NCBI GenBank assembly: GCA_036172245.1
Contig: JAYWIR010000053.1
Coordinates: 1-64,000, forward strand
Direction of reading: 5' to 3'
From: Raillietiella orientalis
Lineage: Eukaryota
DNA: 64,000 nucleotides
Shown here: positions 14,001 through 61,113 of the stretch, piece after piece
Layout: each line of letters starts with the position of its first letter
Numbering within the stretch: position 1 is the first letter of the stretch
Program-made: the position numbers and the translations under genes
The notes under the pieces: generated by a model
Seen by the model: only the letters and a program-made list of their open reading frames with translations
Database searches by the model: none
Told to the model about the DNA's origin: nothing

Positions 14001-14586
14001 ATGCTGTCTTCCATCCCCGGTGCACTGGCCAACAAATTACAGGTGTGCACCGCCATGCACTCCTCGTTGACCAGGTCACGCTCGGGATTCTGCCCATCTG
14101 GTTTCAGGCGAACGTTGAAATCGCCTGCAACCCGATGGTCATTCCGCACACCTGCTTCGTTCAGCAGTCTCGCCGGAGGGTAAGGAAAAACTCTTTCCTC
14201 GTTCTCCTGTTCTTCAGGTCCTTGCCGCTCGGTGCGTACACGTTCGTTACGATCAGATCGATCGAGTCGGACTACCTGAGAGTCAGCTGGCCGACACGAC
14301 TGTGATCGTCGAACCGCACGCTTCGAGCCGCGGCCTCGACGGCTGGCCGAAGCAGGTAGGCGACACCGCAACTTTTCGCTCTCCCACACCTGTACCATAG
14401 CCGCCCTCCGGAGATCCGTTCGATCTCTTGCGCTTGTTCTGCAGATATCAAGTGGATCTCCTACAGCAGCCCAAGGTCGTAGGACTCCAGAAAGGCGGCC
14501 ATGTCTCGTCTCCTGCCGGTGTCTGTCATGCCGTTCACGTTTTAAACGGCGATGCGCAGACGACGGCAGGAGGAGATTCCCGGCAT
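11005..14586 (-). pseudogene. A1 ORF2 (endonuclease, RT, zinc finger)
   Basis: AGDFN, SIDH, SDH, DLRKAFD, QGDSLSP, YADD and CVRC...PHLLVDC, with multiple frameshifts. Confidence 0.92.
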
Positions 14587-28112: not shown

Positions 28113-28581
28113 GATTGAAATCTCCCGCTTTCAGGTGAGGCTTCCGCCCGTTCCTGTCCGCCAGCCAGTCGCGCTTCAGGGTTTCCAGCAGCCTGGTGCG
28201 GTCGCGGTAACCCTGTTTGCCGCTGGGTCCATACACGTTTGTGACGATTAGGTCGATCGAGTCGGACCAGCAGAGAATCAGCTGATCGATCCGACCGTCG
28301 TCATCAAACCGCACGATCTTTACGGCAGCGTCGATGGCCGGCTTCACGAAGAACGCGACCCCGCAGGTGTTGCGGAGGCCGCATCGCCAATACAGCCGAC
28401 CCCCCGCGATCGTCTCGATTTCCTGGGCGTCTGCCGCGGTGATCACGTGGATCTACTGCAGCAGCGCCAGGTCGAGCTCACGCAGAGTGTCGGCTGTATC
28501 TCGCCTGTTGCCGTCGTCGCGCAGCCCGTTGACGTTCCAACAGGCCGCGCGAATCCGACGGCGACTGGCGAGCCCAGGTGT
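28113..28581 (-). pseudogene. Left D ORF2 endonuclease N-terminal half
   Basis: CWNVNG, LQ*IH, NVYGP and AGDFN. Confidence 0.9.
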
Positions 28582-30452
28582 TAGTCCAGGGAAAACGGCG
28601 ATGCGGCGTCCGCCACCTGCTGGGGCGGGACGCTAGGTAGAGGGGGAGGAAGGACAGGTACTGAAGGCACCTTTTCCTCCTCCTCCATCGGTGCCGGCGC
28701 GTCGAGCGGGTCACCCTCAGGTGGGGTCGCGCCTACCTGTTGGCCCTCCTCCATGGGGGCGGGCTGTTCAGGCTCGGCGACTGCAGGGAGGACTTCGCCT
28801 TCTTGCTCACCCTTCTCTATGGGGGTTGCCGGCTCGACGGCTTCCGAGCGTGGGAGTTCAACCTCCGGCATTCCCACGCTACCGCTGGCTTCCTGCTTCT
28901 ACTCCTCGCTGGTGGAGGGGAGGAGCCTCCTTGGTTTCTGGGACTTGCGTCCCGACTTCCTATGGGTGCCTCCGAGGAGGAGGATCCGCTTCCGGCTTAC
29001 AGGTCGCACTCACCTGCGGGGGCCTTCTTCGTCGGGCCGACCTGCGTACGCCCTTGCACGACGGGGTTTCGCGCTCGGCGAGCGTTGCTGCGAGCTCCTC
29101 CGCCGCTTTCTCGAAGGCCGCGTCTTCGCCAGCGGCGACCGTTTCCGCGGGCTGCTCCGCGACCTTATCGAGCGCGGCGTCATCGTTGACGGCGAACGTT
29201 GCCGCGGGCTCCTCCGCGACTTTATCGAGCGCGGCGTCCTGGCTGTCGGCGCGCGAGTCTCGCGTCTCACCCTCTAAACGTAGATTGGGCTCGTCCACGC
29301 GAGTATTCATCGCGTCCGCATCAGCTGTTCCGCGAACATTGCCGCGGGCGGACTCGGCAGGAACGGCTAAGCGTTCCAGTGCCACCGAGCATTCGCGGAG
29401 TTTTTTTTTTGAAAGCGGCGCGGCTTTTTTCTTGTTGCCGGCAGTTTTCTTCTCCGAATTTTCTTCTATCATCACTTTCTTTTTTTTCTCTTTTCTGGCC
29501 TGAACCAGCTGCCAACCCTCCTCCATTCCCGCGTCCACGGGAGCTATTTGCTCCGACGTCTGTACGGGAGGAAGGGAGGCTGGCAGTTGGGAACGGCCAT
29601 TTTCGCGAGCTGGTTTTTCCACCAGCTTTCCACGTTTTCCCTGCGCCTTTTTGGCGGCAGGGGGCACCGGGGTGGGGCGCTTGGGGCACACGCGCCGAAC
29701 GTGACCCTTTTCGCCGCATAGGTGGCACACAATGTTCGGGCACCTTTTTCGGAGATGCCTACTGCATTGCAGTAGCCACAAAATTAGCGTTTCCCCACGT
29801 ACCAGAGGTCCACCGCTTCTTGGCAGACCTCCAGCTTATGGGGAAGCGCACCACCCTTTTTTACCGTGATTGGCGCCGCAGCTTGACCTCCGAAAAGGCT
29901 ATTGTAGCCTCGGAAAATCGTGGACTTCGGCCACAACGCGTGCACTTCTCCGTGCTCTTGTAGCTGTTCTCGAACCGCTGACCTCGTCATGCGACTTGAG
30001 ATCCCAGTGAGATGGACCACCACCGAGCGGTCCATCGTTATCGGTAAGATCTTCCGACCATCAACGATCAGCGGGTCGGTGATCAGGTGTCGGGCCAAGG
30101 TGATATCCTTGCATACCACCTCGACCCGCTGCCCGCCGCTGAGGACGCAGAGGCCGTCGAGATCTTTTTCAAAAATATTGGCGTCCTGCAGCGCCTTCGT
30201 AAAGGCGCGTGCAGTTCGCCCATCGAAAAGGTTGCCTACCTTGTAGACTAGCGAGGGTTTATACCCCGCTTTCTTGTAGGCTTCCATCTCGGCCATGGCT
30301 TCCACGCTTGGCGCGGCCACCATGGCGCTCCATGACCTCGGCGTCGCCGGGGACGATTCCGGGGCGGATGCCCCTGATGCAGTAGGCTGTGGGGACGAAC
30401 AAGCTTCCATCACGCCTACTTCTATCGCGGCGTCCTCTGGCAACGCCGCCAT
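28581..30452 (-). pseudogene. Left D ORF1
   Basis: MAALPED..., DLWYVGK, CHLCGEKGHVRRVC and PMEE repeats, with frameshifts. Confidence 0.9.
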
Positions 30453-32752: not shown

Positions 32753-33212
32753 CGTTGTCGTCGAGCGTATGCTCGACGACGTCGCCTTTGAACGAGCGGC
32801 GGTGGAGCTTGCTTTGTCCTTGCAGCGTCCGCTTAAATCCGCGAAAAAGGCCGTAAGGCGTTCGACCTCGAACAAGAATGCGGAGATTCCGAACTCTGAC
32901 GCAGAGGCGGAAAACACAGCCTGCGGCATCGCGGCCTCCCTTTCGAAGGCCAATCGCACGAACAAGGCTACCCGCAAGATTGTTCTGTTTCTAGAAAAGG
33001 TAGAGATAATTGAGGGAAGCGAGCGTGCCAATAAAGTAAGGAACTCCGGGGACTCCCCTCGAGAGGTAACCTCACGCTGCGTCCTCGGAGGGAGGGAAAG
33101 TGTAGAGTCTGTGCCCCAGAAGCTTCAAGTGCCTAAGATGGCTGCGGTCGCCTTACTCGTCCTTCCCACCTGTCCGTTGACAGGTGGTCCAACGCCAGGT
33201 TCCCAGTCTTAA
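32753..33212 (+). pseudogene. A2 ORF1 C-terminal part
   Basis: Open to the TAATG at 33210-33214; homologous to the A1 ORF1 tail. Confidence 0.85.
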
Positions 33213-36200
33213 TGCCGGGAATCGCCTCTCGCCGCCGTCTGCGAATTGCTTGTTGGAACGTCAACGGGCTATGCAACGACGGCAAGAGACGAGACGTGGG
33301 CTCCACCCTGGCATCGTTCGACCTGGTGCTGCTGCAAGAGATCCACGTGATCTCCGCAGATCAAGCAACGGTGATCGGGCGTACCTCGGGTGGACGGCTA
33401 CTGTGGATTTGCGGCACTGTTAAATCTTGCGGTGTCGCGTTCCTGCTCCGTCCAGCTGTCGAGGCTGCGGCAAAGGGCGTACGGTTCGATAGTGCCGGTC
33501 CCGTCGGGCACTTGACCATCAGGAGGTTGGACTCCATCGATCTGGTCATTACATACGGGTACGCCCCCAGCAACAGCGACGCGCTAGAGGCAAAGGCAAG
33601 GAGAGATTTCTTCCTTACCCCGAGGCGCGAATATCTCGACGATGCGAAAGTGGGCAAATCGCACCTAATCGCAGTTGACTTTAACCTGCGCCTGCTGTCG
33701 GGTGCGTCCGACACACTTCGGAACCGCGTCAACGAGCTGTGCGCAGAGATGCACACGCGAAACTTGTTCGCGGGAGATCCGTAAATTGCCGACAGCATAG
33801 ATCACGTGTTTCTTGATCAGCGCCTATGCTCACACGTGGGCAGGCGCGGCAAGTTACCGTCGGAACTGTCGGACCATGACCGCATCGTACTCGAGGTGCG
33901 CCCACGCGATAAGGGTTCCGCCGTCATCTACGTGGCGCTTACCGGGAAACTGACTGAAACTTCCGGAAGCCGCAAAGCTTCTCCGCGGATTCATACGAGC
34001 TTTCAGCTTGCAGATGCCTCAGGACTTAGACCGCTTCAAGCGCTCGGTCCGGAATTTTGGTGACGAGTTCCCTATGAACCTCCAGCCTGCCGGGTTTGGT
34101 GAAAGCGTGCGTAACGAGACACGGTATTTATAATCTCGATGTTACGCGCAAACATTAGACGTACGCAGGCTAGCCGAATACCGTGCGAAAGCCGAGAGGC
34201 AGGCGTGGCCATACGAAAAGGCCAGCTTACTGGACGATCAGGGTTCGAGGCACTTGGCCCCCGCCCAGGTAAAGGGCTTATTAAAAAAATTCTACTCCTC
34301 CCTGTACGCGCGCGCTGCACCGGAACGGGATGTCTCGCGACTTCTTCTACCGGAGGGCGCTCCGGCGATCGGGGAGGAAGATAGAAAGGCCCTCGACGAT
34401 GAGCGAGATCATTTTGTCCATAGGAAAGTACAAGAGGTGGAAGGCTCCAGGGGAGGACGGCCTGCCAGCGGAGTTTTCTCAATGTTTCGAGGCAGAGCTC
34501 ACTCCTTTGGTGAAGAAACTCACCTTGCTGTTCCGCGAAACGTGCGACGTCCCTGCCTCGTTTCGTTCGGCAAAGGTGCGTCTCCTTCCTAAGGGAGCAG
34601 ACCTTCGGAGCATGAGAAACTGGCGGCCGATTACCGTGATCAACGCGGATGCCAAGTTGCTGGCGAAATTGTGGGCTGAACGCCTGGGGCGGTTAGCGGA
34701 AAGTTTCATTTGCCCGGAGGAGACATATGCTGTTCCCGGGCGGAGCATGGATGCCAACCTGTTCCTCGCCAGCACCTTTCTCGCGCTCCAACAGGAAAGG
34801 GTCAGGATGGGCAACCGGACTTCCGGAATGTTTGCCGCTAGGAAACGGGAAGCTTGGGTGGAGGAGGGAGCCCTCGCAGTCGCAGTCGATTTGTATAAAG
34901 CTTTCGACTGTGTAAACCAGAGGCTCCTCCTGGAGCTCCTGGAACGCTTGGGCTTCCCGGTCTCTTTGCTGACCTACCTGCTATCCTGCTGGCGCGACGC
35001 GCTCATCCAGATCTTTTTCAGTGGACACACCGTGCACGGCGTACCGGTGCAACGCGGCATACGGCAGGGAGACAGCCTGAGTCCCATGCTCTTCAGTACA
35101 TAATTGGATTTGGTTCTGAGAGCGTACAGGGAAACTCTAGCGCACCTGCCGCGCGACTATCCTGGTACGCCCGTGGTGTCAACATATGCGAACGACCTAC
35201 TGCTGCTGTTTCCTATGTCCACCCGGGCTTCGACGGTCGAGGAGTTCTTCGACCTGCTAAGTCGGGGAACCGGGCTTGAGGTGAACAGCGCGAAGTCGTC
35301 CGTCATGCCAATCGGTGCAGCGTGGGCAAGGCAGCCATATGTGGTCCGTTTAAGGATCCCCACGGTACGGTACTTCAAGTACCTCCGTGTACCGATGGCT
35401 GATTATCTCCCTTCGGATGCGTGTTCCAGCTGCCTTCAAAAGGTAGAGACGGCGATCGGTCCGTTCCAAGGCCGCAGGTTTCTCCTGACGGAAAGGGCCG
35501 CGGTGTGGAACGCATTCGCGGCGCCCCTCCTCCGTTCCCTGCTTTTTGTTTGTCCCCCACCACAGAGAATAAAGAGCGGACGAAGGACCTCCTAAGGATT
35601 GCCCTGTGGGGTAATGGGAGAGCCCGAGTCCGACTTTAGGACTTGAGCACTCCGCGTCGGGACGGCGGTCTCGGCCTCTTGACGCTAGAGCGGCTAGAGC
35701 TCCAGCTCCAGTTTCGGTTACTCGCCCTAAAGGCGTAATATTGGAATAACAGTTGGTGCGAGCCCGCACGCCTACTCGTCGAGCAGGCTACAGGGAAGGT
35801 GGGACTGTCATCCTTCCTTGCGCTCCGTCGACGCCGCCGTGTCGGTGACTGCGGGTTGCAGCTACGGAGAGTGGCTGACCTGATTAGGAAGAACGCAGGA
35901 TGGCTCTGCTGTCGCCCCGTTAACGGACCTGCATGGCTGCAAGAGACGGTGCAGACGTGGGCAAGGAGCAAGCAGCAACCCAAGGAGGGCAGAGACAATT
36001 CTTCGCACGTAATGACCGACTCCCGGAGAGTCAGGCGAGAGAACCCCCAAAAACCAGCAGAGTCAGGCGAGAGAACCCCCAAAAACAAGCGTGGGCAAGA
36101 ACAACTCTTCTTGCTGCAATGCTGTTTCCGCTCTCGGAACACTTAAACGGCAACACTGCTGCGAAATTGGATGTTTACCTCAAAATCTGCGGTACGGAGA

Positions 36201-43362: not shown

Positions 43363-43467
43363 TCCCCGCTGTGTAGAGCGGACGTGCTTTTCCTGCGCTC
43401 CGCCTGCGTGGCAAAGCGAGTGTTTTTTCTTATTAAGTGATTTGTGCGTGAACATCGTCGGTGTCCG

Positions 43468-45338
43468 ATGGCAGCGTTGCCAGAGGACACCGCGATGGAA
43501 GTAGTCGTGATGGAGGCTTGTTCGTCCCCACAGCCTACTGGATCAGGGGCTTCCGCCCCGGAATCGTCCCCGGCGACGCCGAGGTCATGGAGCGCCATGG
43601 TGGCCGCGCCTAGCGTGGAAGCCATGGCCGAGATGAAAGCCTACAAGAAAGCGGGGTATAAACCCTCGCTAGTCTACAAGGTAGGCAACCTTTTCGATGG
43701 GCGAACTGCACGCGCCTTTACGAAGGCGCTGCAGGACGCCAATATTTTTGAAAAAGATCTCGACGGCCTCTGCGTCCTCAGCGGCGGGCAGCGGGTCGAG
43801 GTGGTATGCAAGGATATCACCTTGGCCCGACACCTGATCACCGACCCGCTGATCGTTGATGGTCGGAAGATCTTACCGATAACGATGGACCGCTCGGTGG
43901 TGGTCCATCTCACTGGGATCTCAAGTCGCATGACGAGGTCAGCGGTTCGAGAACAGCTACAAGAGCACGGAGAAGTGCACGCGTTTTGGCCGAAGTCCAC
44001 GATTTTCAGAGGCTACAATAGCCTTTTCGGAGGTCAAGCTGCGGCGCGTATCACGGTAAAAAAGGGTGGTGCGCTTCCCCATAAGCTGGAGGTCTGCCAA
44101 GAAGCGGTGGACCTCTGGTACGTGGGGAAACGCCAATTTTGTGGCTACTGCAATGCAGTAGGCATCTCCGAAAAAGGTGCCCGAACATTGTGTGCCACCT
44201 ATGCGGCGAAAAGGGTCACGATCGGCGCGTGTGCCCCAAGCCCCCCACCCCGGTGCCCCCTGCCGCCAAAAAGGCGCAGGGAAAACGTGGAAAGCTGGTG
44301 GAAAGACCAGCTCGCGAAAATGGCCGTTCCCAACTGCCAGCCTCCCTTCCTCCCGTACAGACGTCGGAGCAAATAGCTCCCGTGGACGCGGGAATGGAGG
44401 AGGCTTGGCAGCTGGTTCAGGCCAGAAAAGAGAAAAAAAAGATAGTGATGATAGAAGAAAATTCGGAGAAGAAAACTGCCGGCAACAAGAAAAAAGCCGC
44501 GCCGCTTTCAAAAAAAAAACTCAACGAACGCTCGGTGGCACTGGAACGCTTAGCCGTTCCTGCCGAGTCCGCCCGCGGCAATGTTCGCGGAACAGCTGAT
44601 GCGGACGCGATGAATACTCGCGTGGACGAGCCCAATCTACGTTTAGAGGGTGAGACGCGAGACTCGCGCGCCGACGGCCAGGACGCCGCGCTCGATAAAG
44701 TCGCGGAGGAGCCCGCGGCAACGTTCTCGGTCAACGATGACGCCGCGCTCGATAAGGTCGAGGAGCATCCTGGGGAAACGGTCGCCGCTGGCGAAGACGC
44801 GGCCTTCGAGAAAGCGGCGGAGGAGCTCGCAGCAACGCTCGCCGAGCGCGAAACCCCGTCGTGCAAGGGCGTACGCAGGTCGGCCCGACGAAGAAGGCCC
44901 CGCAGGTGAGTGCGACCTGTAAGCCGGAAGCGGATCCTCCTCCTCGGAGGCACCCATAGGAAGTCGGGACGCAAGTCCCAGAAACCAAGGAGGCTCCTCC
45001 CCTCCACCAGCGAGGAGTAGAAGCAGGAAGCCAGCGGTAGCGTGGGAATGCCGGAGGTTGAACTCCCACGCTCGGAAGCCGTCGAGCCGGCAACCCCCAT
45101 ATAGAAGGGTGAGCAAGAAGGCGAAGTCCTCCCTGCAGTCGCCGAGCCTGAACAGCCCGCCCCCATGGAGGAGGGCCAACAGGTAGGCGCGACCCCACCT
45201 GAGGGTGACCCGCTCGACGCGCCGGCACCGATGGAGGAGGAGGAAAAGGTGCCTTCAGTACCTGTCCCCCCTCCCCCTCTACCTAGCGTCCCGCCCCAGC
45301 AGGTGGCGGACGCCGCATCGCCGTTTTCCCTGGACTAA
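43468..45338 (+). pseudogene. D1 ORF1
   Basis: CGYCNAVG (frameshift) and CHLCGEKGHDRRVC; ends at TAACA. Confidence 0.9.
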
Positions 45339-45806
45339 CACCTGGGCTCGCCAGTCGCCGTCGGATTCGCGCGGCCTGTTGGAACGTCAACGGGCTGCGC
45401 GACGACGGCAACAGGCGAGATACAGCCGACACTCTGCGTGAGCTCGACCTGGCGCTGCTGCAGTAGATCCACGTGATCACCGCGGCAGACGCCCAGGAAA
45501 TCGAGACGATCGCGGGGGGTCGGCTGTATTGGCGATGCGGCCTCCGCAACACCTGCGGGGTCGCGTTCTTCGTGAAGCCGGCCATCGACGCTGCCGTAAA
45601 GGGCGTGCGGTTTGATGACGACGGTCGGATCGATCAGCTGATTCTCTGCTGGTCCGACTCGATCGACCTAATCGTCACAAACGTGTATGGCCCTAGCGGC
45701 AAACAGGGTTACCGCGACCGCACCAGGCTGCTGGAAACCCTGAAGCGCGACTGGCTGGCGGACAGGAACGGGCGGAAGGCTCACCTGATAGCGGGAGATT
45801 TCAATC
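45338..45806 (+). pseudogene. D1 ORF2 endonuclease N-terminal half
   Basis: CWNVNG, LQ*IH, NVYGP and AGDFN. Confidence 0.9.
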
Positions 45807-45884
45807 GAGTGCGGACGTGTTTTTCTTCGCTCTCGTCTCCGTGCTTTCATCCGCTTCATCTTTGCGTCGTACATTTTGACGACG

Positions 45885-47780
45885 ATGTCGACCCAACTTG
45901 AAGCTACTGAAGTTGGAGGAACAGCATCCGGATCTGCAATCGCGGAAGCGACGGCCGCCTCCACTTCGTCTTTCTCGCCAATGGAGAGGAGTTTTGCTGA
46001 CGTTGCTGCCACAGCAGCCGTCAAAGGGAAACCTCTCGACGAGTCGGAGTTGCGGGCATACGTAGCCCAAGGCTATAGACCTGCTCTCCGATATAAGGTG
46101 AGTGGCTTTCTTTCTGCGCGCGACGGGAATCAGTTCAACGATGAACTGACCCGTGTTGGCGTGCGGGAGGAGGACCTTCTCGCCATTATGCCCGTAAAAG
46201 ACATGGGCTATTTCAAGGTGCGTTGCAAAGACGCTGCACTTGTGCAGCGCTTGCTGCGCACCCCGCTTTCGATCCGTGCCCAGAACGTCTTCCCGGCCGC
46301 CATGGACGACTCATTTGTGGTTGAGATTTCCGACATCGAGTCGGAAATCTCCGATACTGATATTCGGAACGCGTTGGCGAAATTCGCCACGGTCCATGCG
46401 CTGTGGAGGGTGCGTAGCAACCTCAAGGACTTCCCGTCCATACACAGCGGAGTCGCTGGAGTCCGGCTTACAATGCCGGACCGCCGTCTGCTGCCCACCA
46501 AACTACAGTTGAAAGACACGGTCGTTCACCACGTTCAATGCGGGAAGGAGGGGCATTGTTTGGATAAATGCCCCTCTGGAAAATGCCGTTATTGCAAACT
46601 ATCCGGGCACCAATTGAAAAATTGCCCGGATCTTTTGCGAAAAAAGGCAGCCGCGGAGCTCCATTTTAAAAAACAAAGCGCGGATAAGAAGAAAAAATCT
46701 GCGAAAAACCTGGAGACCCCACGGCAGAAATTCGGTAAAAACGCGAGGCGGAATGTCGCCCCAAAGCAGCAGGAAACCTCGCACGCGAAGCCCTGCGCAC
46801 CCCCTCTCGCGGCAGGGGAGCCGCAAAAGAAAGAGTGCAGGGAATCCGGGGCAATGGTAAGTCCCCCTAGGCGCAATAGCTGTCCTTCCCAAGCACGCCC
46901 GGCTCTCTCGGAGTTCGAGCAACCGGCGGGGACGCCAATGGACAACGGCGGTAAGGACACTTCCAGTACCGTCAGATCCATTCCTTCACCTCCTGCAGTG
47001 GCTGAGAAACCCAAATCGGGTAAGAAGGGTTGTGCCCTGTCGACTTCGAAAGTCGGCAAAAAAAAATCCGCGTCGCGATCCAACACCGCGAAAGCGGAGA
47101 AAAATCTTACGCGGTCGCAGTCGGAGAGCAAGCTCTCGACTGGCGCGAATGCGATGCCAACGAAGGGATTAAACGCCCTTCCGAAAGCAGCGTCCATGAG
47201 GAGCGTGTCGGAGCCATCGAAATTGCTCCAGTCCAAAGACGCGGATGGCTTAAAAGATGGCCATGGAGCGCAATCTCCATTTACGGCGCCACGCGGAGTG
47301 AGGAACCGTAATAAAATAAAGAAGACTTCAGCAAAGGTCCCTCGTGCAACTGCGCGTGAGCACGCTGAAAACGCGCGCGCCGGGAAAGCAGCCGTCACCA
47401 AAAGCGATGCTCTGGTGACGGAAAACGAAAACAGGACCGCTGTCAATCCAGCAGAACCTGTCACTGCTTCGCGGAAGGCCGAAATCCGATCGAACATGCG
47501 CCGGTCGGACTCCGAAATGGATGCCGTTCCGATCACCGAGACGAGGACAACTCGTTCGAAAGCGTGTGCGCGCCTATCAAAAGTAGGCAGCGAGGCAACG
47601 CTCGCCGCGAAGCAGCGCGAAGTCTCCACGAAACCCGACGGGGTTAAGCCTGGCGTGGAGGAATTGCATGCATGCAGCACGACGGAGGACGGTGGCAACC
47701 GTCATCTCCAGCCAATCGTGCTGCTCGCCGTCTGCTCGCCGGATAAAGCGAGCAAAAAGCCGCCACCTTCCCAGCAGTAA
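45885..47780 (+). CDS. Right C ORF1, open but with an in-frame deletion at the first zinc knuckle
   Basis: VVHHVQCGKEGHC here versus VVHQWFVGKVETCEQCGKEEHC in left C. Confidence 0.8.
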   Translation: MSTQLEATEVGGTASGSAIAEATAASTSSFSPMERSFADVAATAAVKGKPLDESELRAYVAQGYRPALRYKVSGFLSARDGNQFNDELTRVGVREEDLLAIMPVKDMGYFKVRCKDAALVQRLLRTPLSIRAQNVFPAAMDDSFVVEISDIESEISDTDIRNALAKFATVHALWRVRSNLKDFPSIHSGVAGVRLTMPDRRLLPTKLQLKDTVVHHVQCGKEGHCLDKCPSGKCRYCKLSGHQLKNCPDLLRKKAAAELHFKKQSADKKKKSAKNLETPRQKFGKNARRNVAPKQQETSHAKPCAPPLAAGEPQKKECRESGAMVSPPRRNSCPSQARPALSEFEQPAGTPMDNGGKDTSSTVRSIPSPPAVAEKPKSGKKGCALSTSKVGKKKSASRSNTAKAEKNLTRSQSESKLSTGANAMPTKGLNALPKAASMRSVSEPSKLLQSKDADGLKDGHGAQSPFTAPRGVRNRNKIKKTSAKVPRATAREHAENARAGKAAVTKSDALVTENENRTAVNPAEPVTASRKAEIRSNMRRSDSEMDAVPITETRTTRSKACARLSKVGSEATLAAKQREVSTKPDGVKPGVEELHACSTTEDGGNRHLQPIVLLAVCSPDKASKKPPPSQQ

Positions 47781-50700
47781 TGCGGGGAATCGCGTCTTCT
47801 CGTCGTCTGTCCGTAACGTGTTGGAACGTGAACGGACTACAGAACGACGAGAAGGGGCGATTAGTAGCCAACGCCCTGCGCCCCTTCGACCTCGCGCTCC
47901 TGCAGGAGATTCACGTAATCTCCGACGTGAAGGCAGCCGAAATCGAGGAGCGCGCAGGGGAAACGCTACATTGGCGGTGCGGCGGCGCACACACGTGCGG
48001 CGTCGCGTTCATCGTAAGATGAAAAATGGCGGAAGCGGTGCGTAGTGTTCGTTTCGATGACGACGAACGGATAGGCCAGCATGTCATCAAGTGGTCCGAG
48101 TCTATCGATCTCATCGTTACGAACGTCTACGCGCCGTGTGGCTCTCGCTACCTCGAAGAAAGAGTAGCTTTCTTTGGTGAGGTGCAGAGCCACTGGCTCA
48201 ACAACTCCGGCTTCCAAGTGGCGCACCTCGTCGCTGGGGACTTCAACGTCCGCCTGCTCTCCGACGATTGGAGCCGCCCGAGGGCGCGCGCGCTGCCCAT
48301 CGAGATGTGCGCGTCCGTGCACGCCGCCAACTTGATGGTCAGCGAACCTGGAATGGAAAGATCGCTCGATCACGTTTTCCTCGATGAAAACCTGCATTCG
48401 CGTGTGGGTAGGAGAGGAAGATTGTTGACTGAGCTTTCTGACCACCACAGGTTGGAGTTTGAGATCCTTCCGCCAGGCAGGTGGCCTCCGTTGCAAAGCT
48501 GGAGGATGCAGGCGGATTGGCTTAGCCAACCGGAGGCTGCGGAGCATCTACGTGGATACCTCCGGGGCTTTGCCATTCAAGAACTTGCGGACTGGGACGA
48601 TCTCAAAAGATCTGTCCGCGAGTTCTGTTGCCAATTCCCCTTGCACCGGCTTCCACGCGGTTTCGGAGAGGGCGTGGCCAACAGTAGAGACTTTCTGCAG
48701 GCTCGCACGTTTTCGAGACGCGCGGATGTCCGGTGTCTCGCAGAGTACAAGGCGAGGGCCGAGCGCCAGGTCTGGCAGTCCGGAGCATCATGCCTGTTGG
48801 ACGACAAGGGCCAGGAATGTTCGGCCCCAGCCGAAGTACGCCGCATTTGAGACGCTACTACTCCTCGCTCTACGCGGAATCCCCGACGGAGGATATTCTT
48901 TCTGAGATACTCCTGTCTCAGGATGCTCGTGTTGTCGGCGAGGAGGAACGCGAACGTCTCGACGAGCCCTTCGGGGCGCATGAATTTTCGTCCGCCATCG
49001 CTGGGCTGAAGAGACGCAAGGCGCCAGGCGAGGATGGGCTCCCTGCAGAGTTTTATCAGTGCTTTGCAGTGGAGCTCATTCCCTTGATGCTGAAACTCGC
49101 GACGCTGATGAGTGAATCCGGGAATGTCCCTGATTCCTTCCGCTCAGCGAAGGTGCGTCTCCTGCCGAAAGGCGGAGACTTGCGACAACTTAACAACTGG
49201 CGTCCGATCACCTTGGTGAACTCGGACGTCAAGTTGTTTTTTAAGCTGTGGGTCGCGCGGTTAGGAAGTATCACGGAATCTGTGGTGAGCCCGGAACAAA
49301 CCTACGCGGATCCGGGACGATCCATGGAGGCGAACATCCTTTTCGCGCGTACATGGATGCAGCCGCAGGAAGTTGTGGCGCAGCAAAGCCAGGCTGCTGC
49401 GAAAGTCACTGCCGCAGGCAAAAAGAACAGGCGCCGACGGCAGGAGGGAACGACAGGTGCCTTGGCGGTCGCGGTCGATCTCCACAAGGCGTTCGACTGC
49501 GTAAACCAGAAGCTGCTTTTGGAGCTTATGGAACGCCTTGGGTTCCCGGCGCAACTCCTGCTGTATTTGCGCGCGTGCTGGCGCCACGCGCTAACCAGCA
49601 TCACTTTTAGCGGCTGCCGCGTGTATGGTATTCCCGTTCGTAGGGGCATCCGACAGGGCGACAGCTTAAGCCCGTTGCTCTTCAGCATCTTCTTTGAGTT
49701 GGTGCTAAGAGCATACAGGCTGACGCTGTCTCACTTGCCAAGCTCCTGCCCGGGAACGCCTGCCGTGGCCGCCTACGCTGATGACCTGCTTCTTCTGCTC
49801 CCCATGTCCATCCCGGCGTCCAGTGTCGAGGATTTCTTCGACCTGATTCGTCGGGGAGCGGGCGTGAGCGTGAACAGAGAGAAGAGCGTGGTCGTTCCTG
49901 TGAGTACGTCGTGGGAGGGGCAGTCCCACTGGATCCGCCTGGGGATCCCCACGGGCGGGTACTTTAAGTACCTTGGCGTTCCGTTGGGCGATTTCGGCGC
50001 AGCCGAAGCGTGGGCGGACTGTCTTCAGAAAGCAGAGTTGGCCATCAGCCCGTTCTTTAACGGCAAGTTCACCTTGCAGGAACGGGCGACTATTTGGAAC
50101 ACCTTTGTGGCCCCCCTCCTCCGTCCCCTGTTTTTTGTTTTGGACCCCCCCTATGCGGCAAAACAGCGGGCTAAGCGCCTGCTCAGAAGAGCTCTCTGGG
50201 GTCCGGCGAGATCCAGGATCCGCCTTAAAGATTTGTCAGCTCGGCGTCGGGATGCTGGTTTGGGTATCCTGATAATGGAGCGAACCGGACTGCAGGTGCA
50301 GTTCCGACTGCTGGCACTGTGTGCCCAGCTATGGAGATCCCCCCTGTGTGTGCCAGCTCGCATTCTCCTGCGGAGATGCGCCGGCAGCGGAGGATTTCTC
50401 TCTCTTTTGCCGGGCACTCAATACAGGAAGCGGGGTTTCGGGTTTCCATTGCGGCAGTTGACCGCACTTCTGGAAGCACACTCTTGGATCTCCTGCCGCC
50501 CAATGAACTTTGAAGCTTGGCGGCAGGAGTCTGTTGAATCCTGGGCGGCGTTCCAAGGAATACGCCCTGAAGATCTTCGCCCCCTGCGCCAATTTTTTCC
50601 ACTATCCTTGGAAGAAGTACTGCAGGAAGAGGTGAAGTTTTCTACCCTGACTGCCCCGCCTCTTGCCGCAGCGCTGTCTGCCCTCAGGGCAAGAAACCAC

Positions 50701-51372: not shown

Positions 51373-51685
51373 TCATTGACCTACCCTCCATAAACTAAAT
51401 TTGTATTTTCTTTTTACACCCGCGTCCCCATAGGCTCCGGAACATTTTAGGTGCTCATTGTATAAATCCCCGTGAGTACGGAGCCTAACCAAACACCCGT
51501 TACCCTTCCCTACAGTTTTTGATTTTTGTTTGGTTCCATTCATTCCCCCCACGCTGCGAGCGGTTTGTTTTCCAAGCCTGCGTGCCGGTAATTTTTCTAT
51601 GTTCTCGGTCGTTCTCTTGGTTGGGGACATTGTCCCTGACCAGTTTATTATTATTAATAAACGCCCCGGCGTGACCGGGTGATAA

Positions 51686-54600: not shown

Positions 54601-54820
54601 GCAGCCAGCCGCAGTTCTTGCAGCCTTGTGCTGCGTCCGAGGCATCGTGGCGGCATGGAGCGACACCAACAAGGAAGGAGTTGGTCAACACGCGAGGGAT
54701 GTCATCCCATATGCCCAACGCTTCTTGCGAAGAGCTGCCGGATGGCCCCAACTGGGGAATATGCAGACTGACCTCGAGGTCTTCGTTCGACGGATGGGCC
54801 CTCTCGACAGCGACCAGTGA
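51686..54820 (+). pseudogene. D1 ORF2 remainder
   Basis: SDH, WRPITILN, DLLKAFD, YADD and KYLG, with stops and frameshifts. Confidence 0.93.
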
Positions 54821-55045
54821 TCCCTTCCCTGCCCTCCAACTTCTTTTTGTCTGTTTCTTTTTATTTTACTTTTTGTCTTATGCCCATCCCCCTTCGCTGT
54901 CGGGGAGTGCCACGCCGGGCTGCGTCCCGGTGTCCCGACAGGTCCTGTGTTTAGGGCCGTGGTGGGGCCTTGTACCACGCATGTAAAGTTTAATAATAAA
55001 CGCCCCGGGCGTACCCGGGTGATAACGCCGAATCCCTTGGTGAGT

Positions 55046-55052
55046 GGACGTG
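55046..55052 (+). promoter_or_regulatory. DPE-like 5' motif GGACGTG (representative copy)
   Basis: Recurs close to the 5' end at 3156, 16335, 28100, 30534, 32740, 37899, 43380 and 45813 (single-base variants at 3156 and 32740). Function is inferred. Confidence 0.6.
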
Positions 55053-55131
55053 TGTTTCCTTCGCTCCCGAGTGAGTCGACAGGAAGCGGTTTTTTCTATT
55101 GTTGTTTGGTGTGGAACATCGTTGGTGTCCG

Positions 55132-56889
55132 ATGCCAGCGATGCCTGAGGACACCACGATGGAGGTAGGTGTGGGGGAGGCTTGCCCACCCCCACAGCCT
55201 ACCGAATCAGGGGCGTCCGCCCCGGAATCGCCCTCGCCGCTTAAGGCGAGGAGCTGGAGCGCCATGGTGGCCGCGCCGAGCGCGGAAACCATGGCCGAGA
55301 TGGCGTCCTACCTGGCAGCTGGGTACAAGCCCAGCTTGGTTTACCAGGTAGGCAATCTCTTTGACGGGCGAACTGCACGCGCTTTTTCGAAAGCGCTGCA
55401 GAACGCCAACGTGTTGGAAAAGGACCTTGACGGTCTATCCGTGCTCAGCGGGGGTGAGCGCGTCGAGGTTGTCTGCAAGGACATCACCTTGGCGCAAAGC
55501 TTGATAACCACCCCGCTGAACGTGGACGGACGCAAGATCCTACCAGTCACGATGGACCGCTCCGTAGTGGTCCATCTGACAGGGATCACCAGCCGCAAGA
55601 CGCGGTCTACGGTTGGTGATCAGTTAATAAAGTACGGGGATGTTCACGCGCTTTGGCCAAAGGCCACAATCTTCGATGGCTACGATAGCCTTTTCGGAGG
55701 GCAGGCCGCCGCGCGCGTGACGGTGAAGGAGAGTGGGCTTCCCCACAAACTAGAGGTCAATGGCGAAGTCGTAGACCTCTGGTACGTGGGGAAACCCCGC
55801 ATTTGAGGCTACTGCAATGCAGTAGGACACTTGCGCAAGCGGTGCCCGAACGTTGTGTGCCACTTATGCGGGGAGAAGGGCCACGTACGCCGCGTATGCC
55901 CTAAACGCCCCACTCCGGTGCCGTCTGCTGCAAAGAAAGCACAGGCAAAATGCGGTAAACTGGTCGAAAGACCAAAAAGAGATACTGGCCGGCAGCAGCC
56001 GCTGGCCCCTGTTCCTCCCACACAGGCGTCGGAAGAACAACCCTCCGAAGACGCGGGAGTCCAAGACGACTGGCAGTTGGTCAACGCCAGGAAGGAGAGA
56101 AAGGTGCACTTCGCGGAACCCGCGAAAGCGGTAAAAAAGACAGCCGGCAAGGCGAACAAACCTGGACCGCCCTCTAAGACCATGCAGGAGTGTACGGTAG
56201 CACTGGAGCGCATAGCCGTTCCCTAGATTGCCACCCGGGGCGACGAGCCTTCCCTCGCCGTTTCCGCCGCGCCCGCGGTTCGCGACGGCGAACAATCTGT
56301 TTACACAGAGGGTGAGCCGCGCGAAATAGCGACGGTCGAAGCCGAGGACGCCGCGTTCGCTCAGGCGGCGGAGGAGCTCGCGGCCACGCTGGCGGAGCGT
56401 GAGAACCCCTCGCGCAAGGCCGTGCGAAGGCCGGCTCCCGCGAAAAAGGCCCCCACAGGTCAGTCGGACCTGGCGGCCGGAAGTGCATCCTCCTCCTCGG
56501 AGGTACCCCCCAGGAAGTCGGGACGCAAGTCCCAGAAACCCAGGAGGCGCCTCCCCTCCACCAGCGAGGAGGAGAAGTAGGAAGCTAGCGGTAGCGTGGG
56601 AATCCCGGAGGGGGAACTCCCATTCTCGGAAGTCGTCGAGCCGGCCACCCCCATGGAGGAGGGTGAGCAGGGGGGCGAAGTCCTCCCTGCAGTCGCCGAG
56701 CCTGAACAGCCCGCCCCCATGGAGGAGGGCCAACAGGTAGGCGCGACCCCACCTAAGGGTGACCCGCTCGACGCGCCGTTACCCATGGAGGAGGGGGACC
56801 AGGTGCACGCAGCGCCTGACCCTCCTCCTCCACCTAGCGTCCCACCCCAACATGTGGCGGACGCCGCATCGCCATCTTCCCAGGAATAA
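55132..56889 (+). pseudogene. D2 ORF1
   Basis: Stop at 55804 in the first knuckle; CHLCGEKGHVRRVC; frameshifted tail with three PMEEG repeats. Confidence 0.9.
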
Positions 56890-59800
56890 CACCTGGGCTC
56901 GCCAGTCGCAGTCGGATTCGCGCCGCCTGTTGGAACGTCAACGGGCTGCGCGACGACGGTAACAGGCGAGATACGGCCGATAACCTGCGTGAGCTCGACC
57001 TGGCCCTGCTGCAGGAGATCCACGTGGTCACCGCGGCAGACGCCCAGAAAATCGAGGCGATCGCGGGGGGTCGGCTGTATTGGCGGTGCGGCCTCCGCAA
57101 CACCTGCGGGGTCGCGTTCTTAGTGAAGCCGGCCATCGACGCGGCCGTGAAGGGCGTGCGCTTCGATGACGACGGTCGGGACGGTCAGCTGATTCTCAGC
57201 TGGTCCGACTCGATCGAATTTATCGTCACGAATGTGTACGCCCCCAGCGGTAAACAGGGATACAGCGACCGTACCAGGCTGCTGGATTCCCTGAAGCGCG
57301 ACTGGCTGGCGGACACGAACGAGCGGAAGGCTCACCTGATAGCGGGAGATTTCAATCTCCGTCTGCTAACAGGTGAGCCAGAAACACAAGAGAACGCGAT
57401 GAACAAGTTGTGCGCCGCCATGCGTGCGCGCAACTTGTTCGCGGGAGAGAGGGGAATGGTCCGCAGCATCGACCACGTCTTCCTCGACGCTGACCTGTGT
57501 TCACGGGTCGGCAAACGGGGGAGGGTTGCGTCGACGTTGTCGGACCATTCCCGGTTAATTTTCGAGATGCGGTCTCGTGACAAGGGACCTCCATCCAGGG
57601 ATTGGCGTCTGCCGGGGGACTGGACGCGACTCTCAGGTGCGAAGGAATACCTTCGCGAATACCCGAGAGGTGTCACGCTCCGGAATCTCCAGGACTGGGA
57701 CCTTTTTAAAAAATCGGTCCGCGAGTTCTGTGAGCAGTTCCCCCTGGATCCCCTGCCCCTTGGATTCGGCGAGGGTGCTCGCAACCATCGGGCCTATTTA
57801 CAGGCTCGCAGGTACGACAGAACCCCTAATGTCCGTCGCCAGGCCGAGTACCGCCCCGGGGCCGAAAGCCAAGCCTGGCAATCCGGGTCGGCCAGCTTGC
57901 TGGACGACCAGAGCCGGGAATGTTCGTCTTTGGCGTCGGTACGGCATCTCTTGCGGAGTTTTTATTCCTCCCTTTACGCCCAGGAGCCCCCGGATCGAAA
58001 CGCCTCTCGACGCTTGCTTCCGGATGGCACCCCGGCAATAGGGGAGGAGGAGATGGAAAGCCTCGACGAGCCTTTTACCACCGGCGAAATTCTCGCCGGT
58101 ATCAAAAGGCTCAAGAGGCGTAAAGCTCCAGGGGAAGACGGCTTGCCCGCGGAGTTCTTTCAGAGCTTCGCGGAAGAGCTGGCACCCCTGCTGCTTAAGT
58201 TGATCAGGCTGATCCGAGAGGAAGGCGATGTTCCCGCCTCGTTTCGGTCAGCCAGAGTGAGGCTCCTTCCGAAAGGGGGAGACCTCAGGGATTTAAAGCA
58301 CTGGCGTCCGATCACAATCGTGAATACGGACGCCAAGTTGATCGCAGGGCTATGGGCTTCGCGTCTGGGGCAGGTGGCAGAATCCGTAATTAGCCCGGAG
58401 CAGACTTATGCTGTTTCCGGGCGAAGTATGGATGCCAACCTCTTCTTCGCAAGCACATGGGTGCACCTGCAGAGAAGAGAGAAGAAAGGGATAGGGAAAG
58501 TCGGCAACCCCACATTGGGGCCGCCAGCCGGGCTGGGAAGGGACTACCGGGCGGGGAAGGGGGCCCTAGCGCTCGCAGTCGATCTCCACAAGGCTTTCGA
58601 CTGTGTAGACCAGGAACTTCTCTTGGAGCTCCTGGGTCGCATGGGCTATCCCCCCTCCCTGATTTCCTACCTGCGCTCTTGCAGGCGGAATGCGATAATT
58701 ACCGTCTCTTTCAGCGGTCAAAAGGTGTATGGCGTGCCGGTGCGGCGGGGCTTAAGGCAGGGAGATAGCCTCAGCCCCCTGCTCTTCAGCACCTACTTTG
58801 AGTTGGTGCTAAGAGCGTACAGGGTGACTTTGGCCCCATTGCCGAGCTCGTGCCCCGGCACGCCCGCCGTAGCACCGTACGCCGACGATCTTCTGCTTTT
58901 GTTGCCAATGTCCACCCCGGCAAAGGCGGTCGGAGACTTCTTCGATCTGCTAAGCCGCGGGACCGGACTGCAGGTTAACAGGGCGAAGTTCTCGGTTGTG
59001 CCAATAGGTGCGGCGTGGGCAGGGCAGCAGGACTGGGTCCGTCTGGGGATCCCCACGGCGAGGTGCTTCAAGTACCTTGGTGTGCCGTTGGGGCACTACT
59101 CCCCTGCGGAAGCGTGGTCCAGCTGCCTCCAAAAAGTCGAGACGGCGATCGGCCCGTTCCTGGAAGGCAAGTTTCACTTGCCGGTACGGGCCGCGGTTTG
59201 GAACGCCTTCGCGGCCCCCATCCTCCGCCCCTTGCTTTTTGTTTGCCCCTAAACCGTGGAATCCAAGAAGAGGACGAAGGACCTCCTCCGTATCGCCCTT
59301 TGGGGCAAGGGGAGGCCCCGAGTCCCACTGAAGGACTTGTGCGCTCCGCGTCGGGACGGCGGTCTTGGCCTCCTGACGCTGGAGCGCGTTAAGAAGCAGC
59401 TGCGGAGCCGAACCCTCGCCATCGTAGCGAAGATGTGGAGCACCCCTTGGTGCACTCCAGCCCGCCTCCTGGCCAGCCGTGTGTCCCGGTGCGATGGACT
59501 CGCGTGTTTTCTTCTCAGCCGTGGCCGGAAGATGCGAAGATGCGGCCTACTGCTCGGGCGCATGGCAACATTGGCCAAGGAGAACAGCTGGGTGGTTTGC
59601 TGACCCGCCAACTCCCTCGCCTGGCTGGAGGAAAATATTGGAACGTGGGCAGTGGTTAACCAGACAAGCCACGAGACGTGGAATCGTCTTCGTTGCAGCC
59701 CCTACGCCCGCTGCACGCTGCGGAATATCCTGGAGAGTCCAGCAAGATGCATGTGGGCAGAGACGACCTGCCTAGCTACGGCCCTGCCCTCCCTGAAGAG

Positions 59801-60485
59801 GGCACTTCACAGCAGCCGGACGCCAAGGTGGCAAGTCTCCTGCTGCATCGAGGGACGCGAGAAGTTGATCAGCGGCTGGACAACAGGAGAACTGTCCGAC
59901 GCCACGACCCCGAGAGTCCAGCCGCGAGGATTAGTAAGATGGGGCGAGCTGCTCGCCATCCCCAGGGATGAGCTGAAGTGGCGCCCGGTGATGAAGGAAT
60001 CCAGGATCCTGTCCCTCAAGTGGCAAGAGTCGGCGTTGCTTTTGTTGCACTGGGGTCTACTCTGCAACGCGCGCCGCTTCCACTGGACGAGGGGAGCTGT
60101 GGATCCAGCGTGTGCCAGGTGAGGTGAGCGGGAGTCGCTTCCCCACCTTATTGTTGATTGTGCTGCCCTCCGACCCCTTTGGGAACGGTTCCGGACGACC
60201 CTCGGGCTCCCTACGGGCAGGACCCCCAGAGACGTTCTTCGGCCTTTCTTCGTGAAGGACGCACTGCAGCCAGCCGCAGCCATCGCAGCCTTGTGCTGCG
60301 TCCGTGGCATCGTGGGGGCATGGAGCGACGCCAACAACGAAGGAGTGGGTCCACAGGCGAGGGATATCATCCCGTATGCCAAACGCTTCTTGCGAAGATC
60401 TGTCGGATGGCCCCAACTGGGGAATATGCAGACTGACCTCGAGGGCTTCGTTCGAGGAATGAGCCCTCCCTACAGCGACCAGTGA
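56889..60485 (+). pseudogene. D2 ORF2, open from ACA at 56889 to 59252 (complete endonuclease and RT), then in-frame stops
   Basis: TPGLASRSRIRAACWNVNG, LQEIH, AGDFN, SIDH, SDH, DLHKAFD, YADD and KYLG. Confidence 0.94.
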
Positions 60486-60659
60486 TCCCTTCCCTGCCCT
60501 CCAACTTCTTTTTGTTTGTTTCTTTTTATTTTCCTTTTTGACTTATCCATATCTTCCTTCGCTGTCGGGGAGTGCCACGCCGGGCTGCGTCCCGGTGTCC
60601 CGACAGGTCCTGTGTTTACGGCCGTGGTGGGGCCTTGTACCACGCATGTAAAGTTTATT

Positions 60660-60690
60660 AATAAACGCCCCGGGCGTACCCGGGTGATAA
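60660..60690 (+). terminator. 3' end signal: AATAAA + CCCGGG-CGTA-CCCGGG hairpin + TGATAA (representative copy)
   Basis: Equivalent signals at 764-793, 18399, 18832-18862, 22206-22235, 37002, 38996-39025, 51656, 54995 and 61114. Confidence 0.7.
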
Positions 60691-61113
60691 CGCCGAAGCT
60701 CGGCGGAAGACGTTCCATGGGAAACTAGTCGCAAAACTCGCTGACTGAGCACTTCATTTCGTCCCAGTCCGCGAACGTATGAAGCTGGAATCCTCGCAGG
60801 AAGGAGCGTAGATGTTCCGCCGCTGCTGCGAGGCGCAACCAATCCCCTGGCAGGCGCCATGTTTTCAGGGGAGGGCCCTTATTGCACCGATGTAACTCGA
60901 GCACGAGCCGTGGATGGTCGGACAGTTCTGCCGGGAGCGTTCCTCGAGTTTCCACCCGCGTGGACAGGTGGTTGTCGAGGAACATGTGGTCGATGTTCCG
61001 ATCTCTCCCGGCATCACCGGCCAACAAGTTGCGCGCATTCATTGCTCCGCACAACTGGTTGACCAGCTGTGCTCGTCGGTTGGGCGCACCTGCCAGCAGG
61101 CGGAGATTGAAAT
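60691..61113 (-). pseudogene. E2 endonuclease C-terminal half (FN to RLPPSFG)
   Basis: FNLRLL, NIDH, SDH and DWDEMK; joins 43362 across the D array. Confidence 0.9.

What the first reader, a model, noticed from the sequence alone, without database searches (positions are those of the whole stretch)
56879..56897. Family D ORF2 has no AUG: TAACA replaces TAATG
Seen: all D copies (28579-28583, 45336-45340 and 56887-56891) read TAA overlapping ACA-CCT-GGG, giving TPGLASR...CWNVNG, which aligns with MPGIASR in A2. There is no ATG between this ACA and the WNVNG motif. D1 and D2 are diverged subfamilies, so ACA probably predates insertion. Known: human L1 ORF2 translation tolerates loss of its AUG. 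Inference: natural AUG-independent reinitiation, or a -1 frameshift producing an ORF1-ORF2 fusion.
Basis: partly seen in the sequence, partly recalled or inferred. Interest (0 to 1): 0.7.

Follow-up and report, generated by a model that had tools for sequence, protein, structure and literature searches.

The report
LINE enzyme gene without AUG start
One whole branch of a jumping-gene (LINE) family has ACA where its sister branches have the AUG start of the enzyme gene, yet the gene stayed intact, under selection and apparently self-mobilising, so ribosomes most likely restart at the first gene's stop codon without any AUG, between conserved RNA hairpins.

Summary
Confirmed, and a clade-wide trait rather than copy decay. 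TAACA is at all three places; two of them are one segmental duplicate. Genome-wide, 185 of 192 matches to the D junction carry ACA and none carries NTG or NCG. ACA elements form one clade (SH-aLRT 100) nested among AUG families. Five of 38 longer copies keep a full 1195-1198-codon ORF2 from ACA; the first Met is at codon 171 (64 in D3), behind endonuclease motifs. ORF2 codons 2-63 show purifying selection between subfamilies (p=0.004). D subfamilies use insertion sites not seen for AUG families, which argues for their own endonuclease. The junction lies between a positionally conserved upstream hairpin and a large covarying downstream hairpin. Best reading (0.6): SART1-like termination-reinitiation that tolerates a non-cognate codon. 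Main rival (0.22): -1 slip at G_GAN_UAA giving an ORF1-ORF2 fusion. No RNA or protein data were available, so the mechanism is inferred. The scan noted this feature before in other windows of this genome, and a UUG case in another genome. New variant of a known kind.

The parts
55026..60697 (+). Full-length family D1 LINE including a 7-bp direct repeat CGCCGAA at both ends (55026-55032, 60691-60697; likely target-site duplication), inserted antisense into ORF2 codon ~294 of a related LINE
55132..56889 (+). ORF1, 585 codons plus TAA, gag-like with CCHC zinc knuckles; this copy has stops at codons 225, 365 and 483
56837..56864 (+). SL1, upstream hairpin; its 3' end lies 22 nt before the ORF1 stop and 24 nt before ACA; weakened in this copy (z -2.1), z -3.1 in the 45286 copy
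56879..56897 (+). SL2, small hairpin CCCAGG/CCTGGG with the stop and ACA in a 7-nt loop (z -3.3 here); tentative, covariation not supported
56887..56891 (+). TAACA: ORF1 stop TAA overlapping ACA at the position of the sister families' ORF2 AUG
56889..60485 (+). ORF2 frame, 1198 codons: APE endonuclease, reverse transcriptase, C-terminal Cys/His motif; this copy has stops at 59250, 59601 and 60120
56898..56970 (+). SL3, large downstream hairpin (+9..+81 nt) inside ORF2; z -5.0 here, -8.5 in the 45346 copy; covaries across families
57399..57401 (+). First in-frame ATG of ORF2 (codon 171), downstream of the WNVNG, QE and GDFN endonuclease motifs
45336..45340 (+). TAACA junction of a D2 copy whose ORF2 is interrupted at codon ~156 by a family C insertion
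28579..28583 (-). TAACA junction, inverted segmental duplicate of the 45336 copy
33210..33214 (+). Comparator: TAATG stop-start of family A2
47778..47782 (+). Comparator: TAATG stop-start of family C (duplicate at 26110-26114 on the - strand)
14584..14588 (-). Comparator: TAATG of an A1 copy, whose ORF1 frame already stops 15 nt earlier

Best explanation
Family D is an autonomous, target-site-specific L1-like LINE clade whose bicistronic RNA is read by coupled termination-reinitiation, as inferred for its AUG-bearing sisters. Inferred steps: a ribosome translates ORF1, unwinds SL2 and stops at UAA; SL1 refolds just behind it and SL3 stands just ahead, which holds the post-termination ribosome over the junction; the start is then chosen by position, not by codon, so restart occurs at or within a codon or two of ACA, probably with Met-tRNAi as in calicivirus start-codon mutants. 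After this relaxed, AUG drifted to ACA (two changes, via a near-cognate ACG or AUA) in the ancestor of D1-D4. Shown: the ACA state, its monophyly, intact and selected ORF2, family-specific target sites, predicted and partly covarying hairpins. Inferred: every step of translation.
For: ACA in 185 of 192 genome matches, 0 NTG/NCG. 15 ACA-type rows form one clade, SH-aLRT 100, sister to TAATG families (98) in a quick protein tree of 29 rows. Five of 38 longer loci with a junction found (40 fetched) have the full 1195-1198-codon ORF2 open from ACA. Subfamily-fixed changes vs private (post-insertion) changes: codons 2-63 18.5 S/12.5 N vs 80.5/168.5, p=0.004; codons 2-170 p=1.8e-4; codons 171-530 p=1.4e-10; no majority stop in 530 codons of any of 4 subfamilies. 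Of 15 D 3' ends with a mapped flank, 8 sit at ORF2 codon ~294 (D1, D2, D4), 6 at ~485 (D3), 1 elsewhere; 0 of 15 mapped ends of AUG families sit at either site. Sister families keep AUG at the same place while the ORF1 stop lies at -17, -14, -11, -8, -2 or +1 nt, the flexibility typical of reinitiation. A second lineage (F) has an amplified GTG subfamily, 17 of 29 loci, 10 of 17 open over 556 codons. Mean pairing profile of 19 family representatives: hairpin at -50..-28, single-stranded -27..-13; template score 1.72 against a maximum of 1.40 at 335 other upstream offsets. SL3: 36 cells with two-sided change vs 14.7+/-3.0 shuffled (0/500) and 8-21 in slid controls. Literature passages: calicivirus reinitiation survives two or three changes in the start codon and still starts with Met; human L1 tolerates any sense codon (second-hand); SART1 uses UAAUG with a needed downstream structure (second-hand); TURBS stem-to-stop/start distance 12-24 nt.
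Against: No expression or protein evidence. ACA is non-cognate (two mismatches); in CHV1 UAACG gave 8% reporter activity and no replication, and Zorro3 ATG->ACG fell below 5%, so tolerance is not general. No TURBS motif 1: UGGGA within 100 nt upstream in 1 of 40 junctions, and no qualifying pairing to the host 18S helix-26 loop in D1, D4, D5. The SL1 template was drawn after seeing the data; in a shuffle-based scan the -42 window ranked only 5th of 135 offsets, SL1 is weak in D5, J, I, G, C2 and absent in family E. RNAalifold on 22 families kept only 11 pairs of SL3; SL3 lies in coding sequence and the families are related. SL2 covariation is not supported and 22 of 30 D2 copies break one of its pairs. 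Selection in codons 28-63 alone is borderline (p=0.058). The careful tree did not finish, and a 380-nt DNA tree did not recover ACA monophyly against the distant family E.
Confidence: 0.6

Rival explanations
1. Stop-dependent -1 frameshift: with UAA in the A site and SL3 8 nt ahead, the P-site tRNA slips from GAN back to GGA (G_GAN_UAA), then reads NUA-ACA-CCU, giving an ORF1-ORF2 fusion. ACA is then just a Thr codon.
For: The G at -5 that creates G_GAN is in 115 of 119 D loci and in none of the non-D junctions listed; SL3 starts 8 nt after the stop, a typical stimulator spacing (spacing rule from my own knowledge); G_GAU_UUU is a known shift site with a nearby stop that matters (passage); Dictyostelium TRE5-A and TRE3-A are described as needing a -1 shift for ORF2 (passage); the ORF2 frame is open 17-22 codons upstream in D.
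Against: No X XXY YYZ heptamer in the overlap of D1-D4; re-pairing would be imperfect and single-tRNA (GAA, GAG, GAC, GAU, AAA all occur); SL3 is shared with families that keep AUG and whose stops lie up to 17 nt away, so it predates D and is not evidence for a shift; needs a change of mechanism, whereas reinitiation needs only tolerance; the one early report of a viral shifty-stop -1 case is treated with caution in the review. A shift upstream of SL1 is blocked by the ORF2-frame TAG at codon -18 in D1, D2, D4.
Confidence: 0.22
2. Structure-driven internal initiation (IRES-like), independent of ORF1 termination, at ACA or a neighbouring codon such as the NUA at -3 or a near-cognate codon at 10-12.
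For: Three hairpins surround the site; AUU/AUC at codon 10 in D1, D2, D4 and GUG at 12 in D3, D4; AUA at -3 in D1 and D4.
Against: The ORF1 stop is held exactly at -2 in all D subfamilies; no single near-cognate codon before the WN motif is shared by D1-D4; CUG at codon 20 is shared but lies behind the conserved WN motif; no pseudoknot was shown.
Confidence: 0.08
3. D is non-autonomous: its ORF2 is not translated and D RNA is mobilised in trans by AUG-bearing sister families.
For: Many AUG-bearing relatives with similar 3' ends coexist; low-level trans complementation was suggested for Zorro3.
Against: Purifying selection and absence of fixed stops after ACA arose; intact 1195-1198-codon copies; D-specific target sites that differ between D3 and D1/D2/D4.
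Confidence: 0.05
4. A spliced RNA joins an upstream AUG-bearing exon to the ORF2 frame at a CAG acceptor (-8..-6 or -38..-36).
For: Pyrimidine-rich CAG/G sequences in the right phase exist at both places in most copies.
Against: 0 of 115 D loci show a break in alignment at either acceptor, so no retrotransposed spliced copy was seen; 22 of 30 D2 copies have CTG at the nearer site; any in-frame ORF1 CAG gives this phase by itself.
Confidence: 0.05

Closest known systems
SART1 (Bombyx mori non-LTR retrotransposon), UAAUG translational coupling (Kojima et al. 2005; seen only through reviews)
   Same: Bicistronic LINE, ORF1 stop overlapping the ORF2 start by one base, RNA structure downstream of the junction; sister families here have literally UAAUG.
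   Different: D has the non-cognate ACA as its natural state; an upstream hairpin is also conserved; the element is L1-like and targets ORF2 of related LINEs, not telomeric repeats.
Human L1 AUG-independent ORF2 translation (Alisch et al. 2006; seen only through PMC1965478, PMC5009743, PMC5972666)
   Same: ORF2 works when its AUG is replaced by another sense codon.
   Different: In L1 these are engineered mutants, natural L1 keeps AUG, and the ORFs are separated by a 63-nt spacer; here the loss is natural, fixed in a clade and at an overlapping stop.
Calicivirus and influenza B TURBS termination-reinitiation (passages of PMC5972666, PMC10275272, PMC11921876)
   Same: Stop-start overlap, upstream stem ending 12-24 nt before stop/start (here 22 and 24 nt), tolerance of altered start codons in mutants.
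   Different: No UGGGA and no conserved pairing to the host helix-26 loop; natural TURBS examples in that alignment all have AUG (by construction of the alignment); 3' sequences are dispensable there, while a large 3' hairpin is conserved here.
Zepp / ZeppL L1-type LINEs of green algae (passages of PMC8226300)
   Same: L1-type LINEs that build clusters by inserting into existing copies.
   Different: Here several families each use their own codon of relatives' ORF2, often antisense; sequence kinship with Zepp was not tested and nothing was read on Zepp ORF2 translation.
Dictyostelium TRE5-A / TRE3-A and NLTR-B (passage of PMC5911963)
   Same: Non-LTR elements whose ORF2 is described as reached by -1 frameshift, or whose RT frame lacks a start codon.
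   Different: There the ORFs overlap and a shift is stated; here AUG-bearing sisters define the start position exactly and no canonical slippery site is present.

Membership tests
APE-type non-LTR retrotransposon (LINE) | ORF2 with N-terminal APE endonuclease and reverse transcriptase | tested here: met
   PF03372 (E 1.2e-12) at 15-220 and PF00078 (E 3.8e-22) in the intact copy L171; same in the window copy
APE-type non-LTR retrotransposon (LINE) | Upstream gag-like ORF1 with CCHC knuckles | tested here: met
   PF00098
APE-type non-LTR retrotransposon (LINE) | Independent insertions with target-site duplication | tested here: met
   CGCCGAA at both ends of the window copy; 10 of 10 examined 5' flanks translate to ORF2 of various host LINEs at the same site
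L1 clade (L1/Tx1/Zepp-like) | RT groups with reference L1-clade elements in a phylogeny | not tested
   No named references were put in a tree; homologues found were 22-32% identical apart from one unnamed 71% hit, several with PF13966. The label L1-like rests on domain layout and recall.
SART1-type stop-start coupling | UAAUG overlap | tested here: not met
   UAACA in D; UAAUG only in sister families
SART1-type stop-start coupling | RNA structure downstream of the junction | tested here: met
   SL3 predicted (z -5.0, -8.5) and covarying; requirement for translation not shown
SART1-type stop-start coupling | ORF2 translation depends on ORF1 translation and termination | not testable with these tools
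   Needs reporter assays
TURBS reinitiation elements | Motif 1 complementary to the 18S helix-26 loop | tested here: not met
   UGGGA upstream in 1 of 40 junctions; host loop read as UAAAACCG from one 18S copy assumed to be the host's; no qualifying pairing in D1, D4, D5, 5 nt in D2, 6 nt in D3
TURBS reinitiation elements | Upstream stem ending 12-24 nt before stop/start | tested here: met
   SL1 ends 22 nt before the stop and 24 nt before ACA in D1, D2, D4; 24-29 nt before the start position in other non-E families that fold it; prediction only
Canonical -1 programmed frameshift | X XXY YYZ slippery heptamer in the overlap | tested here: not met
   Best candidates have at least two mismatches or are C-runs
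Canonical -1 programmed frameshift | Stimulatory structure a few nt downstream | tested here: inconclusive
   SL3 starts 8 nt after the stop but is shared with AUG families

The most novel reading that the evidence does not exclude
SL1-linker-SL3 is a new class of reinitiation element that clamps the terminated ribosome so tightly that D starts ORF2 with no initiator tRNA at all, loading an elongator Thr-tRNA on ACA (the route seen in vitro for non-cognate codons with eIF2D or post-termination 80S). D would be a natural genome-encoded case of codon-blind restart after a long ORF.
Probability: 0.15. Interest if true: 0.85.

Novelty: new variant of a known kind. Interest (0 to 1): 0.6.

Why it matters
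How LINEs translate ORF2 is still open; AUG-independence rests on engineered human L1 mutants and fails in other systems (Zorro3, CHV1). Here a whole clade lost the AUG to a non-cognate codon, kept its enzyme under selection and kept spreading, next to sister families with AUG or GUG in the same RNA frame of hairpins. That is a ready natural allelic series (AUG, GUG, ACA; stop at -17 to +1) for reporter tests of reinitiation against frameshifting. It also means that ATG-based annotation would cut 170 residues off such ORF2 proteins and call active elements dead.

Tried and rejected
No related loci in metagenome contigs (264 pattern matches, none confirmed). The protein search gave 24 hits, one at 71% without DNA context. 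CpG decay of an ACG start in individual copies was rejected: 0 of 192 matches have NCG and only 1 of 119 D loci has ACG. A first dN/dS run was discarded for codons 171 onward because nested insertions were misaligned; it was redone with homology masking. The 380-nt DNA tree was too short to place D against family E. SL2 as a conserved functional element: present in most predictions but not an outlier by energy (rank 88 of 201 offsets) and without covariation support. Coding selection in the 17-codon overlap: none in either frame (p=0.56 each). A loop-downstream pseudoknot (AACA with UGUU) was considered by eye and dropped because D3 and D4 break it. dN/dS between the ATG and GTG subfamilies of F was uninformative (1 fixed difference in 488 codons). 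The primary papers Kojima 2005 and Alisch 2006 are not held. Literature searches (listings, with passages read from some) showed no natural LINE clade with a non-cognate ORF2 start; Repbase entries and subscription journals were not searchable, so absence from print is not established.
Full report
Observation. The pentamer TAACA stands at 56887-56891 (+), 45336-45340 (+) and 28579-28583 (-). In each, TAA closes the upstream frame and ACA opens TPGLASR..CWNVNG, colinear without gaps with MPGIASR (A2) and MRGIASS (C), where the pentamer is TAATG. The 28579 and 45336 copies belong to one inverted segmental duplication of 13.4 kb, so the window gives two independent junctions. In the 56889 copy the first in-frame ATG is codon 171, behind the WNVNG (15), QE (42) and GDFN (153) motifs of the endonuclease; a start there would remove most of the domain, which Pfam places at residues 15-220.

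Family state. A 17-mer beginning at codon 2 matches the genome 192 times; 185 matches are preceded by ACA, none by NTG or NCG, none by TAATG. Searches with four D queries gave 30 loci each (the best 30 of 40 scored): ACA in D1 29/29, D2 30/30, D3 28/30, D4 30/30. A survey of 264 kb of the window's contig gave 41 ORF2 starts (one misaligned row dropped later), showing many sister families with TAATG, TGATG, ATGA or a stop further upstream. In a protein tree over 760 residues (29 of 51 candidate copies passed the coverage cut; quick search, the careful one did not finish) the 15 ACA rows form one clade at SH-aLRT 100, sister to the TAATG families A1/A2/H at 98, inside other AUG families. A 380-nt DNA tree did not recover this against the distant family E. 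AUG is therefore ancestral and was lost once, before D1-D4 split.

Is ORF2 still working? Of 40 longer loci, 38 had a junction in range; five have a complete ORF2 open from ACA (1198 codons in L171, L173, L175, L177; 1195 in the D3 copy L199), and seven D1 copies are 96.8-98.3% identical over ORF2. The first majority ATG is at codon 171 in D1 and D2, 64 in D3, 178 in D4, so no early AUG is shared. Changes fixed between subfamilies were compared with private changes of single copies, which reflect neutral decay. Codons 2-63: 18.5 synonymous and 12.5 non-synonymous against 80.5 and 168.5 (p=0.004). Codons 2-170: 53.8/51.2 against 224.5/469.5 (p=1.8e-4). Codons 171-530: 122/96 against 338.3/702.7 (p=1.4e-10). 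Codons 28-63 alone, outside the downstream hairpin, give p=0.058. No subfamily has a majority stop in 530 codons. The 5' end of ORF2 was thus translated after the AUG had gone.

Autonomy. The window copy is flanked by CGCCGAA on both sides (55026, 60691), and 10 of 10 examined 5' flanks are the antisense strand of ORF2 of various related LINEs at one site. Of 42 3' ends that could be tied to a junction, 23 were D-type and 19 AUG/GUG-type. Among D ends 8 mapped to host codon ~294 (D1, D2, D4), 6 to ~485 (D3), 1 elsewhere and 8 could not be mapped (mostly followed by another D). Among the others 15 mapped, to codons ~54, 63, 155, 267 or 570, none to 294 or 485. The sample is biased towards D neighbourhoods, but subfamily-specific targets are what use of the element's own endonuclease predicts.

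RNA frame around the junction. Three hairpins are predicted. SL1 (56837-56864) has a different sequence in each family but a fixed place: over 19 family representatives the 5' arm lies at about -50..-42, the 3' arm at -36..-28, followed by a single-stranded linker; the template score is 1.72 at the true offset and at most 1.40 at 335 other upstream offsets. It folds with z -5.0 and -8.5 in the two window copies and in 23 of 24 representatives; on 22 sequences its 31 pairs show 36 two-sided changes against 14.7+/-3.0 in shuffles and 8-21 in slid controls; D1-D4 keep 27-31 of 31 pairs. RNAalifold kept only 11 pairs across all families, and coding constraint and relatedness can inflate these counts.

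Mechanism. In sister families AUG stays put while the ORF1 stop lies at -17, -14, -11, -8, -2 or +1 nt; family E overlaps further. That is the pattern of termination-reinitiation, not of a shift at the stop. Family F has an amplified GTG subfamily (17 of 29 loci; 10 of 17 open over 556 codons against 3 of 12 others), a second loss of AUG in the same setting. In D the ORF2 frame is closed by TAG at codon -18 (D1, D2, D4), the overlap holds no canonical slippery heptamer, and neither frame shows coding selection there. No copy among 115 breaks at a putative splice acceptor. TURBS motif 1 is missing, so the tether, if any, is of another kind. I put AUG-independent reinitiation at 0.6. The serious rival is a stop-dependent -1 slip at G_GAN_UAA, because the G at -5 is a D-specific change (115 of 119 loci) and SL3 begins 8 nt after the stop (0.22). 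Internal entry (0.08), trans-mobilisation (0.05) and splicing (0.05) follow. No RNA run was listed, so no step of translation is shown.

Comparison with what is known. SART1 couples ORF1 and ORF2 at UAAUG and needs a downstream structure; human L1 ORF2 tolerates any sense codon in place of AUG. Both primary papers were unavailable and are cited from passages of PMC5972666, PMC3894237, PMC5009743, PMC1965478, PMC2881922, PMC10275272 and PMC2699510. Calicivirus reinitiation survives two or three changes in the start codon, but CHV1 UAACG and Zorro3 ACG largely fail. TRE5-A and TRE3-A are described as frameshifting (PMC5911963, passage). Zepp-type LINEs nest in their own copies (PMC8226300, passages); PMC5203782, PMC11921876 and PMC11260458 were also seen as passages or term counts only. 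No supplements were read. Six searches listed no natural LINE clade with a non-cognate ORF2 start, within the limits of an open-access library. D works like SART1 but fails its defining UAAUG; it is not a TURBS element.

Verdict. A real, clade-wide, selected loss of the ORF2 AUG in an autonomous LINE lineage: a new variant of a known kind, interest 0.6. Earlier agents of this scan reached a similar reading on other windows of this genome and noted a UUG case in another genome; these are unchecked notes and are not counted as support.

Noticed in passing
window 45806-51686 and 55026-60697; loci L171-L210: The LINE families insert into fixed codons of each other's ORF2: C/I/C2 at ~155 (sense), G ~54, an I-like family ~63, H ~267, D1/D2/D4 ~294, D3 ~485, A1 ~570 (antisense).
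   Followed up: partly
G000 C53:173848 (L071) and loci L141-L170: Family F has a young GTG-start subfamily (17 of 29 loci) beside an ATG subfamily; single related copies show ACG, TTG and AAG at the start position.
   Followed up: partly
window 18822-32229 vs 41705-55035: 13.4-kb inverted segmental duplication at 93.3% identity.
   Followed up: no
window 60663-60690 and all family 3' ends: Elements end in AATAAA followed by a shared GC-rich inverted repeat (CGCCCCGG..CCGGG) with no poly(A) tail; the motif is common to all families examined.
   Followed up: no
ORF2 offsets +306, +216 and +132 nt from the start position: Further windows inside ORF2 fold better than shuffles across families, +306 most strongly (mean z -2.9).
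   Followed up: no
window 8286-8289 (-), family E: Family E has AUG one codon further up, an ORF1 that mostly runs 31-52 nt into ORF2, and no SL1; only this copy has ATGA.
   Followed up: no
window 14584-14605 (-), family A1: ORF1 frame stops 15 nt before a retained TAATG (two stops in tandem) in 4 of 4 A1 copies of the contig survey.
   Followed up: no
loci L181-L184 vs L171-L179: D1 and D2 share ORF2 but have different 5' ends and ORF1 (75-78% identity), a mosaic pattern; L030 has a chimeric ORF1 whose 5' part is another family's ORF2.
   Followed up: no
G000 contigs C11, C19, C22, C26, C35, C68, C70: D copies cluster near contig ends and in small repeat-rich contigs, which suggests subtelomeric or centromeric islands.
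   Followed up: no
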